Origin: Escherichia coli
GTDB lineage: Bacteria; Pseudomonadota; Gammaproteobacteria; Enterobacterales; Enterobacteriaceae
Assembly (NCBI GenBank): GCA_902500205.1
Contig: GCA_902500205.1_4868.1
Strand: one strand, 5' to 3'
Length of the DNA stretch: 64,000 bases
Made by a program: the position numbers and the translations under genes. The notes below the pieces were generated by a model. The model did not search any database. It had not been told where the DNA came from and was given only the letters and a program-made list of their open reading frames with translations. This document shows, piece by piece, positions 17,910-56,288 of this stretch (positions are counted from its first letter, which is position 1; the number at the start of each line of letters is the position of its first letter).

Positions 17910-17935
17910 ATTTCAGATATATATTACCTAGGTGA
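17910..17935 (+). promoter_or_regulatory. Phage promoter-like element, class 1 (ATTTCAGATATATATTACCTAGGTGA)
   Basis: Exact 26-mer also at 27030 and, with one mismatch, at 55847; always after a terminator and before a gene. Confidence 0.55.
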
Positions 17936-17977
17936 GATTGCATTGGTAATCTTTTAACCGACTATCACTTAAGGAAT

Positions 17978-18739
17978 ATGAAAATGAAAACTATCAATCT
18001 GCTCACTCTGGCTAATGGCTCTATCGAACGTAACGAAGACGACGGTGCTATCCTGCAAGCAACCAACGGCTTTAAAATTATACTGTCCCCAATTCAATTC
18101 ACCGGCTTACAAGTCTGGCTGCGCGAAATCAACAAACGCAAACTGCCGCGCCGTATGGCGGTTGGTGACCTGCTCTTTACACTGGATAACGTTGACGGTG
18201 TTAAACCGGAACTGTACGAAGTTCAGTACAAAGCCGCAGTCGATACACTGCGACTGAAGAAAGGGGAAGAAATCAAATTCATTCCGGTGACCTATAATGG
18301 TAACACTTACCTGCAGATGGAAGACACCCCGTTCGCTGTGCACGTCACTGACACTGTTGTTGAACTGGCCATTGCCATTGGTCTGGTTGCGACTCCGGCG
18401 GTACTGGAAGTCAGCGAAGATCCACTGCAGGATTTCGGTACGCTGTTCGAAACCGTGCTGGGTGGCATGAAGCTCGGGAACATCACCAAGGTCATCCGCC
18501 GTATTCCGATTCGGAATGCGCAGCCGAAAGTGATGACGCTGGCAGAAAGCATGACGGAACACCCGGAGCTGACTGCTGAAGAAATTCAGGCGCAAGAAGT
18601 CGCAGCTGAAGAAGAACGTCAGAACGCCCAGCGTGAAGCCATGAAGCCGTTCCGTGGTTTCCTGGATGCTATCTTCGACTGTGCGAACTCGCTGATGAAA
18701 CCAGTTGAAGTGAAAACCGCTGAAGAACCAGCAGCGTAA
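17978..18739 (+). CDS. Hypothetical protein
   Basis: ORF after promoter element; second ATG at 17984 has better RBS spacing. Confidence 0.5.
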   Translation: MKMKTINLLTLANGSIERNEDDGAILQATNGFKIILSPIQFTGLQVWLREINKRKLPRRMAVGDLLFTLDNVDGVKPELYEVQYKAAVDTLRLKKGEEIKFIPVTYNGNTYLQMEDTPFAVHVTDTVVELAIAIGLVATPAVLEVSEDPLQDFGTLFETVLGGMKLGNITKVIRRIPIRNAQPKVMTLAESMTEHPELTAEEIQAQEVAAEEERQNAQREAMKPFRGFLDAIFDCANSLMKPVEVKTAEEPAA

Positions 18740-26864: not shown

Positions 26865-26871
26865 AAGTGTG

Positions 26872-26907
26872 CCTGGTCTCCTTGTGAGACCAGGTCTCTT
26901 TATTTTA
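26872..26907 (+). terminator. Rho-independent terminator
   Basis: Hairpin cctggtctc-cttgt-gagaccagg plus T-rich tail. Confidence 0.65.
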
Positions 26908-26908
26908 G

Positions 26909-27010
26909 CCCTCTAAACGCACTCACAACCTTCTAAAGCCTCTCTAACGGTAGAACGACCCTCTAAAGTGATAAAAGCTCTCAAAACGCGTTTGAGAGCG
27001 TTATAGAGGG
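26909..27010 (+). repeat. Intergenic direct-repeat block (CYCTCTAAA x4) with internal perfect palindrome and inverted terminal copy
   Basis: ccctctaaacg 26909, ccttctaaagcc 26929, ctctctaacgg 26940, ccctctaaagtg 26959, palindrome gctctcaaaacgcgtttgagagc 26977-26999, inverted ttatagaggg 27001. Confidence 0.5.
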
Positions 27011-27029
27011 TGTACTCTGAATAAAAATA

Positions 27030-27055
27030 ATTTCAGATATATATTACCTAGGTGA
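27030..27055 (+). promoter_or_regulatory. Phage promoter-like element, class 1
   Basis: Identical 26-mer to 17910..17935. Confidence 0.55.
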
Positions 27056-27106
27056 TAGAAGACAATCTATCAACTCAATCGACTATTAATCTAAAGGAGT
27101 ATTGCC

Positions 27107-27250
27107 ATGTTAACTCGTAACCATAAACGTGCCATCTTCGCCATCGTTGCTGTTGTTGCTTTCGCGGTACTGTCTATCACTGTAACTCAAGATTACAACA
27201 AGTGCATCGATAACGGTAACTCTGTTGCCATGTGTACAGGTCGCGGCTAA
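27107..27250 (+). CDS. Small membrane protein (47 aa, one TM helix); not in ORF track
   Basis: AAGGAG RBS; my translation MLTRNHKRAIFAIVAVVAFAVLSITVTQDYNKCIDNGNSVAMCTGRG; stop overlaps next start (TAATG). Confidence 0.5.
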   Translation: MLTRNHKRAIFAIVAVVAFAVLSITVTQDYNKCIDNGNSVAMCTGRG

Positions 27251-27432
27251 TGGACTTTTCTGATGCGCAGTTTGCCGAGTTCTTATCTCACCCGCGTGTT
27301 AAACGTGAGTGGGATAATCTCACTAACGGTGTTCGTCGTCAGGACGAAGAAGAAATCGTTCACGTTACCGCACAAGTCTTACTCGTCTCACCGACAGGTA
27401 ATGTGTTTCCAATGCAGCAGGAGATTTACTAA
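27250..27432 (+). CDS. Small hypothetical protein (60 aa)
   Basis: In-frame ATG of track ORF 27232; coupled to flanking genes. Confidence 0.45.
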   Translation: MDFSDAQFAEFLSHPRVKREWDNLTNGVRRQDEEEIVHVTAQVLLVSPTGNVFPMQQEIY

Positions 27433-27620
27433 TGGGCGTTTTAGTTAATTACGATGGTAAAAACGGAATCGTGCTCCGCGAAGTGGAAGATAACGAAACA
27501 GTAGAGGTGAATCCGCAAACCTCAGAACGTACGTTTATCGTGGGGCCGAAAAGCGCACTACCGAAGCCGGACTGGAAAGAAGAGCTGGCGAAGTTCCGTG
27601 GGGAACTCGGGAAGAAGTAG
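27432..27620 (+). CDS. Small hypothetical protein (62 aa)
   Basis: TAATG coupling with previous gene; followed by terminator. Confidence 0.5.
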   Translation: MGVLVNYDGKNGIVLREVEDNETVEVNPQTSERTFIVGPKSALPKPDWKEELAKFRGELGKK

Positions 27621-27632
27621 TATAGATAATTT

Positions 27633-27661
27633 AATACCACCTACGGGTGGTATTATTTTTT
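27633..27661 (+). terminator. Rho-independent terminator
   Basis: Hairpin aataccacc-tacg-ggtggtatt plus T-run. Confidence 0.7.
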
Positions 27662-27672
27662 GCCTAAGGAAC

Positions 27673-28095
27673 ATGAAAATGATTAATGAGAAGCTCCAAA
27701 AGTATTTAAAGAATGACACCGACTGGATGGTTCTTGACCAGTACGGACGATTTGTTCCGCTATCCAAGGATTCCCCTATACCCCGTGACAAAGCGATTTA
27801 TATTCCTGACGGTAAGGGTGGCTATCGTTTCTGGGAAGGCCAGGAAGTAAAAGAGGAAATGTTCTACATGGAACCGAAGTTCCGTGCAGCGTTCCCATCG
27901 AAAAATATTAACGGCTATGTTTACAACGCAATTCCGCCAATTACGCATCCTAACTTTGAGGTTGTGAACTACCCCGCAACTGTTCTGGATTGGCAACGTG
28001 CCATTAGTGAACACTACACGATTCCGCTTGAAGGTGTTTACTTCCCATTCCGTGATATTAGTTTGGACGACTTTATTAACTCTCTTAAGGACTAA
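27673..28095 (+). CDS. Hypothetical protein
   Basis: TAAGGA RBS; ATG 27673 or 27679. Confidence 0.5.
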   Translation: MKMINEKLQKYLKNDTDWMVLDQYGRFVPLSKDSPIPRDKAIYIPDGKGGYRFWEGQEVKEEMFYMEPKFRAAFPSKNINGYVYNAIPPITHPNFEVVNYPATVLDWQRAISEHYTIPLEGVYFPFRDISLDDFINSLKD

Positions 28096-29072: not shown

Positions 29073-29219
29073 ATGAATACCTTTATGCAACAACTGCGTC
29101 AGCAACAGCTGAAACAAGTCGCTTTTCAACAACGTCTGCAAGAGGTTACCCGCCAACCGCAGACTTCCACCCGTACCATTAAAGGACTAGGAGGTGACAT
29201 CATCTTCAATAAGAAGTAA
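29073..29219 (+). CDS. Small Gln-rich protein, paralog A (48 aa); not in ORF track
   Basis: GAGG RBS; my translation MNTFMQQLRQQQLKQVAFQQRLQEVTRQPQTSTRTIKGLGGDIIFNKK; followed by hairpin 29228-29247. Confidence 0.45.
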   Translation: MNTFMQQLRQQQLKQVAFQQRLQEVTRQPQTSTRTIKGLGGDIIFNKK

Positions 29220-29331: not shown

Positions 29332-29478
29332 ATGGAACAACTACGTTCGCAAATACTTAACTATTACGTTAAGCAAACCCAATTCAACCAACGTGTACAA
29401 CAGTTGACTGCGCCCAAGCAGAACACTGTTCGTCGTATCAAGGGTTTAGGAGGTGAAATACTACTAAACAAAAGTTAA
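29332..29478 (+). CDS. Small Gln-rich protein, paralog B (48 aa)
   Basis: TAAGGAGG RBS; MEQLRSQILNYYVKQTQFNQRVQQLTAPKQNTVRRIKGLGGEILLNKS; about 40 percent identical to paralog A ungapped. Confidence 0.5.
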   Translation: MEQLRSQILNYYVKQTQFNQRVQQLTAPKQNTVRRIKGLGGEILLNKS

Positions 29479-34303: not shown

Positions 34304-34325
34304 GAGATAGATATTATCTACGTGA
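34304..34325 (+). promoter_or_regulatory. Phage promoter-like element, class 2
   Basis: GAGATAGATATTATCTACGTGA. Confidence 0.45.
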
Positions 34326-55846: not shown

Positions 55847-55872
55847 ATTTCAGATATATATTACTTAGGTGA
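55847..55872 (+). promoter_or_regulatory. Phage promoter-like element, class 1
   Basis: ATTTCAGATATATATTACTTAGGTGA; downstream leader AATCGACTATTAATCTAAAGGAGTATT shared with 27078 copy. Confidence 0.55.
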
Positions 55873-55922
55873 GAGTTACTACTAAACTCTCTAATCGACT
55901 ATTAATCTAAAGGAGTATTCTA

Positions 55923-56288
55923 ATGCGTTTTAAACATCAAACCGTTGTGTTGGCAAAGAAAGCATTTCTGGTTCGTCTCTCTTACATTATTACTCGTGTC
56001 ACTGCGAAGGATGTTACGCAGAAAGACATTGCATTGTTGGTAGGCTGCTCACCGTCACAAATCTCTGCGATTAAAAATGAACGCGAGAAAGCCGTGACTA
56101 TCGAAACTCTGATGCGTGTTGCCGATACACTGCGCCTGAATTACGAAATCGTTTACCGTTCCATTAACGGCAAATGCCGCCATAGCTTCAAAATTGAATC
56201 CTGCACCGACTACATGAATAACTGTCCTATCCGGGTACGAGAAACAGGACTTAAAGTCATGGCACGTAAACCTTCTGCAGTGATGTAG
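55923..56288 (+). CDS. XRE-family helix-turn-helix transcriptional regulator
   Basis: HTH signature TQKDIALLVGCSPSQISAIKNER; first gene after promoter-like element. Confidence 0.5.
   Translation: MRFKHQTVVLAKKAFLVRLSYIITRVTAKDVTQKDIALLVGCSPSQISAIKNEREKAVTIETLMRVADTLRLNYEIVYRSINGKCRHSFKIESCTDYMNNCPIRVRETGLKVMARKPSAVM

What the first reader, a model, noticed from the sequence alone, without database searches (positions are those of the whole stretch)
27107..27620. Early micro-operon of three tiny translationally coupled genes
Directly behind promoter copy 27030 lie three ORFs of 47, 60 and 62 aa joined by TAATG stop-start overlaps and closed by a terminator. The first (not in the track) is a single-pass membrane peptide. 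A tightly coupled operon of micro-proteins at an early promoter is typical of host-takeover modules.
Basis: inference. Interest (0 to 1): 0.5.

Follow-up and report, generated by a model that had tools for sequence, protein, structure and literature searches.

The report
Early three-gene micro-operon, jumbo phage
Three real, tightly packed mini-genes sit behind a virion-RNA-polymerase early promoter of an SPN3US-like giant Salmonella phage; the first encodes a membrane-anchored peptide whose very conserved two-cysteine tail should face the periplasm, and what any of the three does is unknown.

Summary
ORFs of 47, 60 and 62 aa (27107-27250, 27250-27432, 27432-27620) are joined by TAATG overlaps. 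They lie 52 nt after a 24-nt promoter motif (27031-27054) and end at a hairpin plus T-run (27632-27661).

The window is about 99% identical to Salmonella jumbo phage SPN3US, a nucleus-forming phiKZ relative. There the three ORFs are already annotated as hypothetical proteins.

The motif matches the published early-promoter consensus of phiKZ-like phages (TATATTAC core). It occurs 3 times in the window against 0.01 expected, and once upstream of the ORF1 homologue in all 25 related loci examined.

All three ORFs are under purifying selection (dN/dS 0.05-0.32). ORF1 is the conserved anchor of a variable small-gene cassette: N-in/C-out, with a variable membrane helix and a near-invariant tail, DYNxCxxNGNSxxxCTGRG. 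ORF2 and especially ORF3 have a narrower distribution. Neither has a recognisable fold or family.

"Early" and "host takeover" remain inferences, because no transcript or phenotype data were available. ORF1's conservation pattern points to the cell envelope rather than a cytoplasmic target.

This is a new member of a known kind and of modest interest. The early cassette also has a covarying 5' hairpin and a CGACYAT leader box.

The parts
26871..26905 (+). Intrinsic terminator of the preceding gene (265-aa gp201 homologue). It insulates the cassette from upstream transcription.
   Evidence: 10-bp stem with 6 GC pairs, followed by a T-rich tail. An equivalent terminator follows the homologous gene in relatives.
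27031..27054 (+). Early-type promoter motif TTTCAGATATATATTACCTAGGTG, with core TATATTAC at 27040-27047. Presumed to be read by the injected virion RNA polymerase.
   Evidence: 3 copies in the window against 0.01 expected. It matches the published phiKZ, 201phi2-1, OBP and N1M2 consensus (PMC7058600). There are about 10 copies in the SPN3US genome, all on the + strand and upstream of genes. One copy lies upstream of ORF1 in each of 11 annotated relatives, 13 IMG/VR loci and one metagenomic contig.
27053..27072 (+). 7-bp hairpin (TGATAGA / TCTATCA, 6-nt loop) directly after the promoter core. Probably the 5'-terminal stem-loop of the early mRNA.
   Evidence: A hairpin starts within the first 5 nt of the folded segment in 17 of 19 promoter copies, with different arm sequences. 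Folding energies are lower than in random genomic 34-mers (Mann-Whitney p = 1.6e-4).
27080..27099 (+). Leader box CGACTAT, then a spacer, then the Shine-Dalgarno AAGGAG (27094-27099).
   Evidence: CGACYAT..RGGA occurs 3 times in the window, only behind the three early promoters. There are 8 copies in the SPN3US genome against 1.1 expected, all before genes that lie downstream of an early-promoter copy. It also precedes ORF1 in most relatives (10 of 11) where ORF1 is not the first gene.
27107..27250 (+). ORF1, 47 aa. Bitopic membrane peptide: basic N-terminus (MLTRNHKR), helix at residues 9-27, conserved tail DYNKCIDNGNSVAMCTGRG.
   Evidence: PHROG 8574, function unknown. SPN3US YP_009153360.1.
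27250..27432 (+). ORF2, 60 aa, acidic (pI 4.7). The ATG overlaps ORF1's TAA. Predicted as two helices plus a beta-hairpin.
   Evidence: PHROG 14868, function unknown. No structural match in the PDB.
27432..27620 (+). ORF3, 62 aa (pI 5.4). The ATG overlaps ORF2's TAA and it has its own AGGAG at 27419-27423. Predicted as four strands plus a conserved C-terminal helix (PDWKxELAxFRxxLxKK).
   Evidence: PHROG 16804, function unknown. No structural match in the PDB.
27632..27661 (+). Intrinsic terminator that closes the unit. The hairpin is symmetrical and also scores on the - strand.
   Evidence: Terminators also close the cassette in relatives.

Best explanation
This is a self-contained accessory transcription unit of about 610 nt in an SPN3US-like, nucleus-forming jumbo phage.

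Shown:
- A conserved phiKZ-type promoter motif is followed by a hairpin, a CGACYAT leader box and a strong Shine-Dalgarno sequence.
- Three protein-coding ORFs under purifying selection follow, with overlapping stop and start codons, and then an intrinsic terminator.
- ORF1 is the conserved anchor of a variable small-gene cassette.

Inferred:
- The injected virion RNA polymerase starts transcription at about 27051-27054 within minutes of infection.
- The 5' stem-loop and leader box give a stable, well-translated early mRNA.
- ORF2, which has a weak ribosome-binding site, is translated by ribosomes that terminate on ORF1 and restart at TAATG. ORF3 probably uses both coupling and its own AGGAG.
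- ORF1 inserts into the inner membrane N-in/C-out. It displays a periplasmic loop of about 19 residues, Cys33-X9-Cys43 (probably a DsbA-formed disulfide), ending in CTGRG.
- Selection acts on this tail and not on the helix, and the tail is nearly invariant in phages of Salmonella, Escherichia, Proteus and Erwinia. It therefore most likely binds a conserved envelope component, or a component of the phage clade's own entry machinery.

My preferred function is early envelope modification, such as exclusion of superinfecting phage or modulation of an envelope protein. ORF2 and ORF3 would be small acidic cytoplasmic effectors that are clade-specific and dispensable across the wider group.
For: - Identity of the phage.
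- ORFs, overlaps and terminator.
- Promoter motif: 3 copies against 0.01 expected. It matches the published early-promoter consensus (PMC7058600; PMC7598289 states that such motifs proved to be early promoters wherever transcripts were profiled).
- Motif distribution: about 10 copies in SPN3US, all co-oriented with the genes downstream. One copy lies upstream of ORF1 in every related locus.
- Purifying selection. Synonymous codon variation at invariant tail residues.
- ORF1 topology: hydropathy 2.67; net charge of the N flank averages +2.6 against +0.3 for the C flank over 31 family members.
- ORF1 invariant residues: C33, G37, S39, C43, T44, G45, R46.
- Tight stop-start junction after ORF1 in 10 of 13 relatives, whatever gene follows.
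- The same cassette in relatives carries other envelope-directed small proteins: an 81-aa protein with apparently two hydrophobic segments (my reading, not computed) and a 123-aa protein with a signal-peptide-like N-terminus.
- Hairpin and leader box.
Against: - There are no transcript, ribosome-profiling or proteomic data. The one SPN3US infection proteomics paper (PMC6384053) is not held.
- The transcription start site is extrapolated from phiKZ.
- No homologue of any of the three proteins has a known function. Pfam, NCBIfam and PHROGs gave nothing. An exhaustive profile search of 1.84 billion representatives found only 4 weak extra hits.
- Structure models are of moderate to low confidence (pLDDT 73.6 and 66.6) and have no PDB neighbour.
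- Topology and the disulfide are predicted from rules, not measured.
- The envelope or exclusion function is an argument from the conservation pattern and from analogy.
- In Asesino a terminator-like hairpin lies between the promoter and ORF1, so ORF1 expression there would need read-through or another promoter.
Confidence: 0.55

Rival explanations
1. ORF1 is a secreted pre-peptide. The hydrophobic stretch would be a cleavable Sec signal, and a free disulfide-looped peptide of about 20-24 residues would be released into the periplasm.
For: Only the C-terminal 19 residues are conserved, while the hydrophobic segment drifts like a signal peptide. Small residues at -3/-1 positions exist near the end of the hydrophobic stretch in many members, for example ACS|Y and SVS|N. 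This is my own reading and not a predictor result.
Against: The hydrophobic stretch is about 19-20 residues in nearly all members, which is the length of a membrane anchor; signal h-regions are usually 7-15. The window protein has no AxA-type site. No signal-peptide predictor was available.
Confidence: 0.15
2. ORF1 is a functional analogue of the host small proteins MgrB or SafA. It would bind the periplasmic or membrane part of a sensor kinase such as PhoQ and reprogramme envelope signalling early in infection.
For: The architecture is the same as MgrB: 47 aa, bitopic, N-terminus in the cytoplasm, basic N-terminus, and two conserved periplasmic cysteines that are essential in MgrB (C28 and C39; PMC8404706). 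ORF1 has invariant C33 and C43. All hosts of this phage clade are Enterobacterales, and PhoQ/PhoP operates in E. coli, Salmonella and related bacteria (PMC8404706).
Against: No sequence relationship was found. There was no MgrB Pfam hit at E <= 1. hhalign aligned only 14 helix residues at 19.8% probability. In MgrB the helix residue W20 is key for binding and the helix is conserved at several positions, whereas ORF1's helix is free to vary.
Confidence: 0.1
3. ORF1 acts on the phage's own early membrane compartment. It would insert into the lipid vesicle that encloses the injected genome, with the conserved tail facing the lumen and contacting injected phage proteins.
For: SPN3US and Asesino are nucleus-forming phages, and small round organelles have been seen early in SPN3US infection by thin-section electron microscopy (PMC13282480; bioRxiv 10.1101/2024.03.24.586471). 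A tail conserved across phages with different hosts would fit a phage-encoded partner.
Against: The family is absent from phiKZ, Goslar, RAY and all other nucleus-forming phages outside the SPN3US/Erwinia subclade, so it is not part of the core mechanism. No insertion route into a pre-formed vesicle is known.
Confidence: 0.07
4. The unit is not early, or the ORFs are not functional proteins. The motif would be a non-promoter repeat and the ORFs would be annotation noise.
For: There is no direct expression evidence. The simple sigma-70 scan finds no promoter at this position.
Against: dN/dS is 0.05-0.32 with saturated synonymous sites for all three ORFs. Protein families span four genera. The motif is conserved at the syntenic position in every relative and matches experimentally validated phiKZ-type early promoters (PMC7598289).
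Confidence: 0.03

Closest known systems
Early promoters of phiKZ-like jumbo phages, read by the virion RNA polymerase (phiKZ TATATTAC; 201phi2-1, OBP and N1M2 consensus)
   Same: The core and its flanks fit the published consensus: TTTYARR..TATATTAY....GTG. The motif is multi-copy, co-oriented with the genes downstream, and often precedes genes of unknown function.
   Different: No promoter list or transcription-start map for SPN3US was found in the papers searched. SPN3US has only about 10 copies, against 28 early promoters in phiKZ. Each copy here is followed by a covarying hairpin and often by a CGACYAT leader box, which the papers I read do not mention.
T4-type PeSL cassettes (promoter-early stem-loop; PMC2839356, PMC4122927)
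   Same: A repeated composite element of about 100 bp (AT-rich region, early promoter, stem-loop, Shine-Dalgarno) drives small genes of unknown function. It sits in a hypervariable spot between conserved modules and is transcriptionally insulated by terminators.
   Different: The promoter is of the virion-RNA-polymerase type and not sigma-70. The stem-loop lies downstream of the promoter, in the transcript leader, and is AT-rich rather than GGGG/CCCC. Recombination between copies or mini-circles was not examined.
MgrB, and SafA (small bitopic regulators of the PhoQ sensor kinase)
   Same: 47 aa, N-in/C-out, basic N-terminus, and a short periplasmic tail with two conserved cysteines.
   Different: No detectable homology. 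ORF1 conserves the tail and not the helix. ORF1 is phage-encoded and confined to one jumbo-phage subclade. Its target is unknown.
Early phage envelope and exclusion proteins (T4 Imm and Sp, T5 Llp, P22 SieA, HK97 gp15), recalled from my own knowledge
   Same: Small, expressed early, membrane- or periplasm-located, accessory, and found in variable regions.
   Different: No sequence or structural relationship was tested or found. ORF1 is smaller than all of them and is not a lipoprotein. Exclusion activity is purely hypothetical.

Membership tests
phiKZ-type early promoter (virion RNA polymerase) | Conserved AT-rich core (TATATTAC-like) with the flanks seen in related phages | tested here: met
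   TTTYARRNNTATATTAYNNNNGTG matches 3 times with 0 mismatches against 0.01 expected. Consensus taken from PMC7058600 Table 2.
phiKZ-type early promoter (virion RNA polymerase) | Several copies per genome, each upstream of and co-oriented with an operon | tested here: met
   10 copies in SPN3US at <= 5 mismatches, all on the + strand and each 50-160 nt before an annotated start.
phiKZ-type early promoter (virion RNA polymerase) | Conserved at the syntenic position in relatives | tested here: met
   One copy upstream of the ORF1 cassette in 11 annotated relatives, 13 IMG/VR loci and one metagenomic contig.
phiKZ-type early promoter (virion RNA polymerase) | Rifampicin-resistant transcription starting about 10 nt downstream, within minutes of infection | not testable with these tools
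   No expression data were available and no SPN3US transcriptome was found.
Translationally coupled operon | The stop codon of the upstream gene overlaps or abuts the next start, and this is conserved | tested here: met
   TAATG at both junctions. TAATG or TAAGATG follows ORF1 in 10 of 13 relatives, and TAATG or TAANATG follows ORF2 in 4 of 5. Coupling itself is inferred.
MgrB family (Pfam MgrB) | Small bitopic N-in protein with two conserved periplasmic cysteines | tested here: met
   Hydropathy and flank charges. C33 and C43 are invariant in 31 sequences.
MgrB family (Pfam MgrB) | Sequence homology to MgrB | tested here: not met
   No Pfam hit at E <= 1. hhalign probability 19.8%, helix only.
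Bacterial lipoprotein (a UniRef entry names the Kwan homologue 'Lipoprotein') | Lipobox L-[AS]-[GA]-C at the end of the signal sequence | tested here: not met
   The window protein has no Cys before residue 33. In members that do have one, the context is ALAC or AAAC, and it is not conserved.
T4-type PeSL regulatory cassette | Repeated composite of early promoter, stem-loop and Shine-Dalgarno, flanking variable genes of unknown function | tested here: met
   (composite element). (variable gene content).
T4-type PeSL regulatory cassette | Sigma-70-type promoter; a stem-loop that acts as terminator for upstream transcription | tested here: not met
   No sigma-70 match at 27031-27054. The hairpin lies after the promoter core and has no T-run. 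A separate terminator lies at 26871-26895.
Holin/antiholin lysis peptide | Small membrane protein encoded next to the endolysin or spanin genes | tested here: not met
   The SPN3US endolysin (ACQ60_gp110) lies about 70 kb away. The cassette sits behind an early-type promoter.

The most novel reading that the evidence does not exclude
ORF1 may found an uncharacterised class of phage peptide. It would be a 45-50-aa membrane-anchored, disulfide-looped periplasmic ligand (C-x2-NGNS-x3-CTGRG) made in the first minutes of infection by SPN3US/Erwinia-type nucleus-forming jumbo phages. It would block or re-tune a conserved envelope machine, for example entry of a second phage of its own clade. It would be delivered by a modular early expression cassette (virion-RNA-polymerase promoter, covarying 5' stem-loop, CGACYAT leader box) that also serves as the recombination scaffold for swapping small early genes.
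Probability: 0.15. Interest if true: 0.6.

Novelty: new member of a known kind. Interest (0 to 1): 0.35.

Why it matters
Early genes of nucleus-forming jumbo phages are expressed before the protective protein shell exists, yet most have no known function. This unit is the smallest complete early transcription unit in the SPN3US genome, at about 610 nt with three proteins of 47-62 aa. That makes it an easy test bed for virion-RNA-polymerase promoter function, for the role of the 5' hairpin and CGACYAT leader, and for translational coupling.

ORF1 gives a specific, mutable hypothesis (two cysteines plus the CTGRG tail, facing the periplasm) about how such phages act on the cell envelope. Nothing here overturns current understanding. 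The genes are already annotated as hypothetical proteins, and this kind of element is known.

Tried and rejected
- Family scans (Pfam, NCBIfam, PHROGs) of all three proteins gave only function-unknown PHROGs.
- Word-indexed searches of 5.8 billion proteins, and an exhaustive HMM search of 1.84 billion representatives with the ORF1 profile, found the families only in this phage clade. There were 4 weak extra hits: three small membrane-type peptides, and one 381-aa protein with four tandem YNxCIGNGxSxxQC repeats. Pfam gave no name for that repeat.
- AlphaFold2 models of ORF2 and ORF3 had pLDDT 73.6 and 66.6. Foldseek against the PDB gave nothing with E < 1.
- The leader as a whole is not unusually structured (z = 0.16). 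Only the 5' hairpin is.
- The genes that follow ORF1 in Machinavirus phages look like diverged ORF2 to the eye (..VTA....PFQEIY), but this was not significant by HMMER (about 2 bits). I do not claim it.
- MgrB homology was rejected. The lipoprotein reading was rejected. A lysis role was rejected on gene context.
- The SPN3US infection proteomics paper (PMC6384053) could not be read. No paper mentioning these gene products was found.

Full report
**What the window is.** The region 26900-27700 is 99.0-99.4% identical to Salmonella jumbo phages of the SPN3US group (genus Seoulvirus). SPN3US is a phiKZ-related, nucleus-forming phage that carries a virion RNA polymerase (PMC13282480; PMC7598289). 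In SPN3US RefSeq the three ORFs are annotated as hypothetical proteins: ACQ60_gp200, gp199 and gp198, or YP_009153360 to YP_009153362. By my arithmetic these are gp66-68 in the original numbering. They lie between a block of virion-protein genes and a DnaB-like helicase and major head protein genes.

**Check of the observation.** All stated features are present.
- ORF1 runs 27107-27250 (47 aa), ORF2 27250-27432 (60 aa) and ORF3 27432-27620 (62 aa).
- Both junctions are TAATG.
- ORF1 has AAGGAG 7 nt upstream of its start. ORF3 has AGGAG 8 nt upstream. ORF2 has only a weak purine stretch, so reinitiation after ORF1 is the natural way for it to be translated. That step is inference.
- A 10-bp hairpin followed by TTTTTT (27632-27661) closes the unit.
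- A separate terminator at 26871-26895 ends the preceding gene.

**The promoter.**
- The sequence TTTCAGATATATATTACCTAGGTG occurs at 17911, 27031 and 55848, the last with one mismatch.
- It fits the early-promoter consensus published for phiKZ (TATATTAC), 201phi2-1, OBP and N1M2 (PMC7058600, Table 2). A degenerate pattern written from those gives 3 hits against 0.01 expected.
- PMC7598289 states that such motifs are centred near -10 of early transcription starts. It also states that they proved to be early promoters, attributed to the virion RNA polymerase, wherever transcripts were profiled.
- The whole SPN3US genome holds only about 10 copies, all on the + strand and each shortly before a gene.
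- The unit studied here is the only one of these made up solely of micro-proteins.
- The simple sigma-70 scan finds nothing at this position.

**Are the ORFs genes?** Yes.
- tblastn finds ORF1 in 63 phage records, ORF2 in 46 and ORF3 in 41. They belong to Salmonella, Escherichia, Proteus and Erwinia phages.
- Against relatives at 40-89% protein identity, synonymous sites are saturated while pN stays at 0.06-0.37. Every computable dN/dS is 0.05-0.32.
- Invariant residues of the ORF1 tail are written with different synonymous codons in different phages. The conservation is therefore at the protein level and is not due to an embedded ribosome-binding site.

**ORF1.**
- A profile search of 5.8 billion proteins gave 31 clusters of 45-50 aa. 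Where a long contig is on record it is of jumbo-phage size (about 220-250 kb).
- An exhaustive HMM search of 1.84 billion representatives added only four weak hits.
- The alignment shows a short basic N-terminus, a variable hydrophobic segment of about 19 residues, and a near-invariant C-terminus, DY[ND]xCxxNG[NH]SxxxCTGR[GS]. C33, G37, S39, C43, T44, G45 and R46 are invariant.
- Hydropathy is 2.67 for the window protein, and the family minimum is 1.77. Net flank charge averages +2.6 on the N side and +0.3 on the C side. By the positive-inside rule this predicts N-in/C-out.
- The two cysteines would then lie in the oxidising periplasm. A disulfide between them is inferred.
- The window protein has no lipobox. 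There is no relationship to MgrB beyond architecture (PMC8404706).

**ORF2 and ORF3.**
- Both are acidic and soluble (pI 4.7 and 5.4).
- AlphaFold2 gives two helices plus a hairpin for ORF2 (pLDDT 73.6). It gives four strands plus a C-terminal helix for ORF3 (pLDDT 66.6).
- Neither model has a PDB neighbour with E < 1.
- Their families are confined to Seoulvirus, Erskinevirus and, for ORF2, Wellingtonvirus.

**The locus in relatives.** I examined 11 annotated relatives, 13 IMG/VR loci and one metagenomic contig.
- The plan is always the same: a late gene, a terminator, one early-promoter motif, a variable run of small genes that includes ORF1, and a terminator.
- ORF1 is the first gene after the promoter in the SPN3US type and in one metagenomic lineage. 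Elsewhere one to five other genes come first, which puts ORF1 up to about 2.3 kb downstream of the promoter.
- Of the 13 IMG/VR loci, ORF2 is detected in 7 and ORF3 in 3.
- The start of the next gene lies within 0-2 nt of ORF1's stop in 10 of 13 relatives, whatever that gene is.
- Extra cassette genes in relatives include an 81-aa protein that, by my reading of the sequence, has two membrane segments, and a 123-aa protein with a signal-peptide-like N-terminus. The cassette is therefore enriched in envelope-directed small proteins.

**Expression architecture.**
- Directly after the promoter core, 17 of 19 copies (10 in SPN3US and 9 in relatives) form a hairpin that starts within the first 5 nt of the folded segment.
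- The arm sequences differ between copies: GATAGA/TCTATC here, and GAGAGTT/AACTCTC, AGATT/AATCT and AACGA/TCGTT elsewhere.
- Folding energies are lower than for random genomic 34-mers (p = 1.6e-4).
- With the transcription start extrapolated from phiKZ, this hairpin would be the 5'-terminal stem-loop of the mRNA. From general knowledge of RNase E and 5'-end-dependent decay, such a stem-loop is a known stabiliser. This is an inference.
- About 48 nt from the motif start lies a CGACYAT box followed by the Shine-Dalgarno sequence. It occurs only behind the three early promoters in the window.
- In SPN3US the box occurs 8 times against 1.1 expected, always before genes that lie downstream of an early-promoter copy.
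- In 10 of 11 relatives it precedes ORF1 even when ORF1 is internal to the cassette.
- The closest analogue I know for such composite, repeated cassettes that drive variable small early genes is the T4-type PeSL (PMC2839356). It differs in promoter type and in where the stem-loop lies.

**Mechanism and its limits.** The best-supported reading has these parts:
- It is an early accessory unit transcribed by the virion RNA polymerase.
- ORF1 places a conserved, probably disulfide-constrained tail in the periplasm.
- The helix drifts while the tail is nearly invariant across phages of different enterobacterial hosts. The partner should therefore be a conserved envelope component, or a component of the clade's own entry apparatus.
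- I favour an envelope-modifying or exclusion role, with low confidence.
- Rivals are a cleaved secreted peptide, an MgrB/SafA-like kinase modulator, and a role at the early infection vesicle.

Timing of expression, topology, the disulfide, coupling and function all remain untested. The SPN3US infection proteomics paper could not be read.

**Verdict.** The element is a new member of a known kind: an early small-gene cassette of a phiKZ-like phage. Interest is modest. The most useful new points are the ORF1 tail motif and the promoter-hairpin-leader module.

Noticed in passing
window 17911-17985, 27031-27110, 55848-55926; SPN3US 4423, 15610, 56290, 65409, 72680, 94235, 109889, 113982, 165683, 223273: Each early-promoter copy is followed at once by a 5-9 bp hairpin whose arms differ between copies (covariation). 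Most are then followed by a CGACYAT box about 10 nt before the Shine-Dalgarno sequence. CGACYAT..RGGA..ATG occurs 8 times in SPN3US against 1.1 expected, always before genes that lie downstream of an early-promoter copy.
   Followed up: partly
window 26905-27012: The spacer between the late terminator and the early promoter holds three exact CCYTCTAAA copies (26909, 26929, 26959). These are the only exact copies in the 64-kb window. There is also an inverted TATAGAGGG at 27002-27010 and a 12-nt inverted repeat at 26974-27002. Relatives have tandem (T)AGAG(N)GCGTT-like units at the same place. The role is unknown; it could be a protein-binding array.
   Followed up: partly
window 29073-29219 and about 29335-29478: Two tandem paralogous 48-aa ORFs (SPN3US ACQ60_gp195 and gp194) share the C-terminal motif R(T/R)IKGLGG(D/E)I..NK. 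Each is bracketed by terminator-like hairpins.
   Followed up: no
L002 1175-1420, L003 233-478 and 1205-1450, L004 1189-1434: Erskinevirus phages and pEa_SNUABM_29 carry an 81-aa protein, apparently with two membrane segments, between the early promoter and ORF1. It is duplicated in phiEaH2 and absent from the window.
   Followed up: no
P0048 (381 aa, metagenomic): This unrelated protein has a hydrophobic N-terminal region and carries four tandem repeats of YNxCIGNG(N/A)SxxQC. That resembles the ORF1 tail, so the Cys-x2-NGxS-x3-Cys loop may be a reusable mini-module. Pfam gives only a sub-threshold thionin hit.
   Followed up: partly
window 34307-34322 (SPN3US 72680); also SPN3US 15610 and 109889: A variant promoter class (..GAGATAGATATTATCTA.GTG), closer to the OBP/N1M2 consensus, lies before larger genes. 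One example is the operon that follows the major head protein gene.
   Followed up: no
L002 1430-1449 (Asesino): A terminator-like hairpin lies between the first cassette gene and ORF1, although only one promoter motif is present. ORF1 there would need read-through or a promoter that was not recognised.
   Followed up: no
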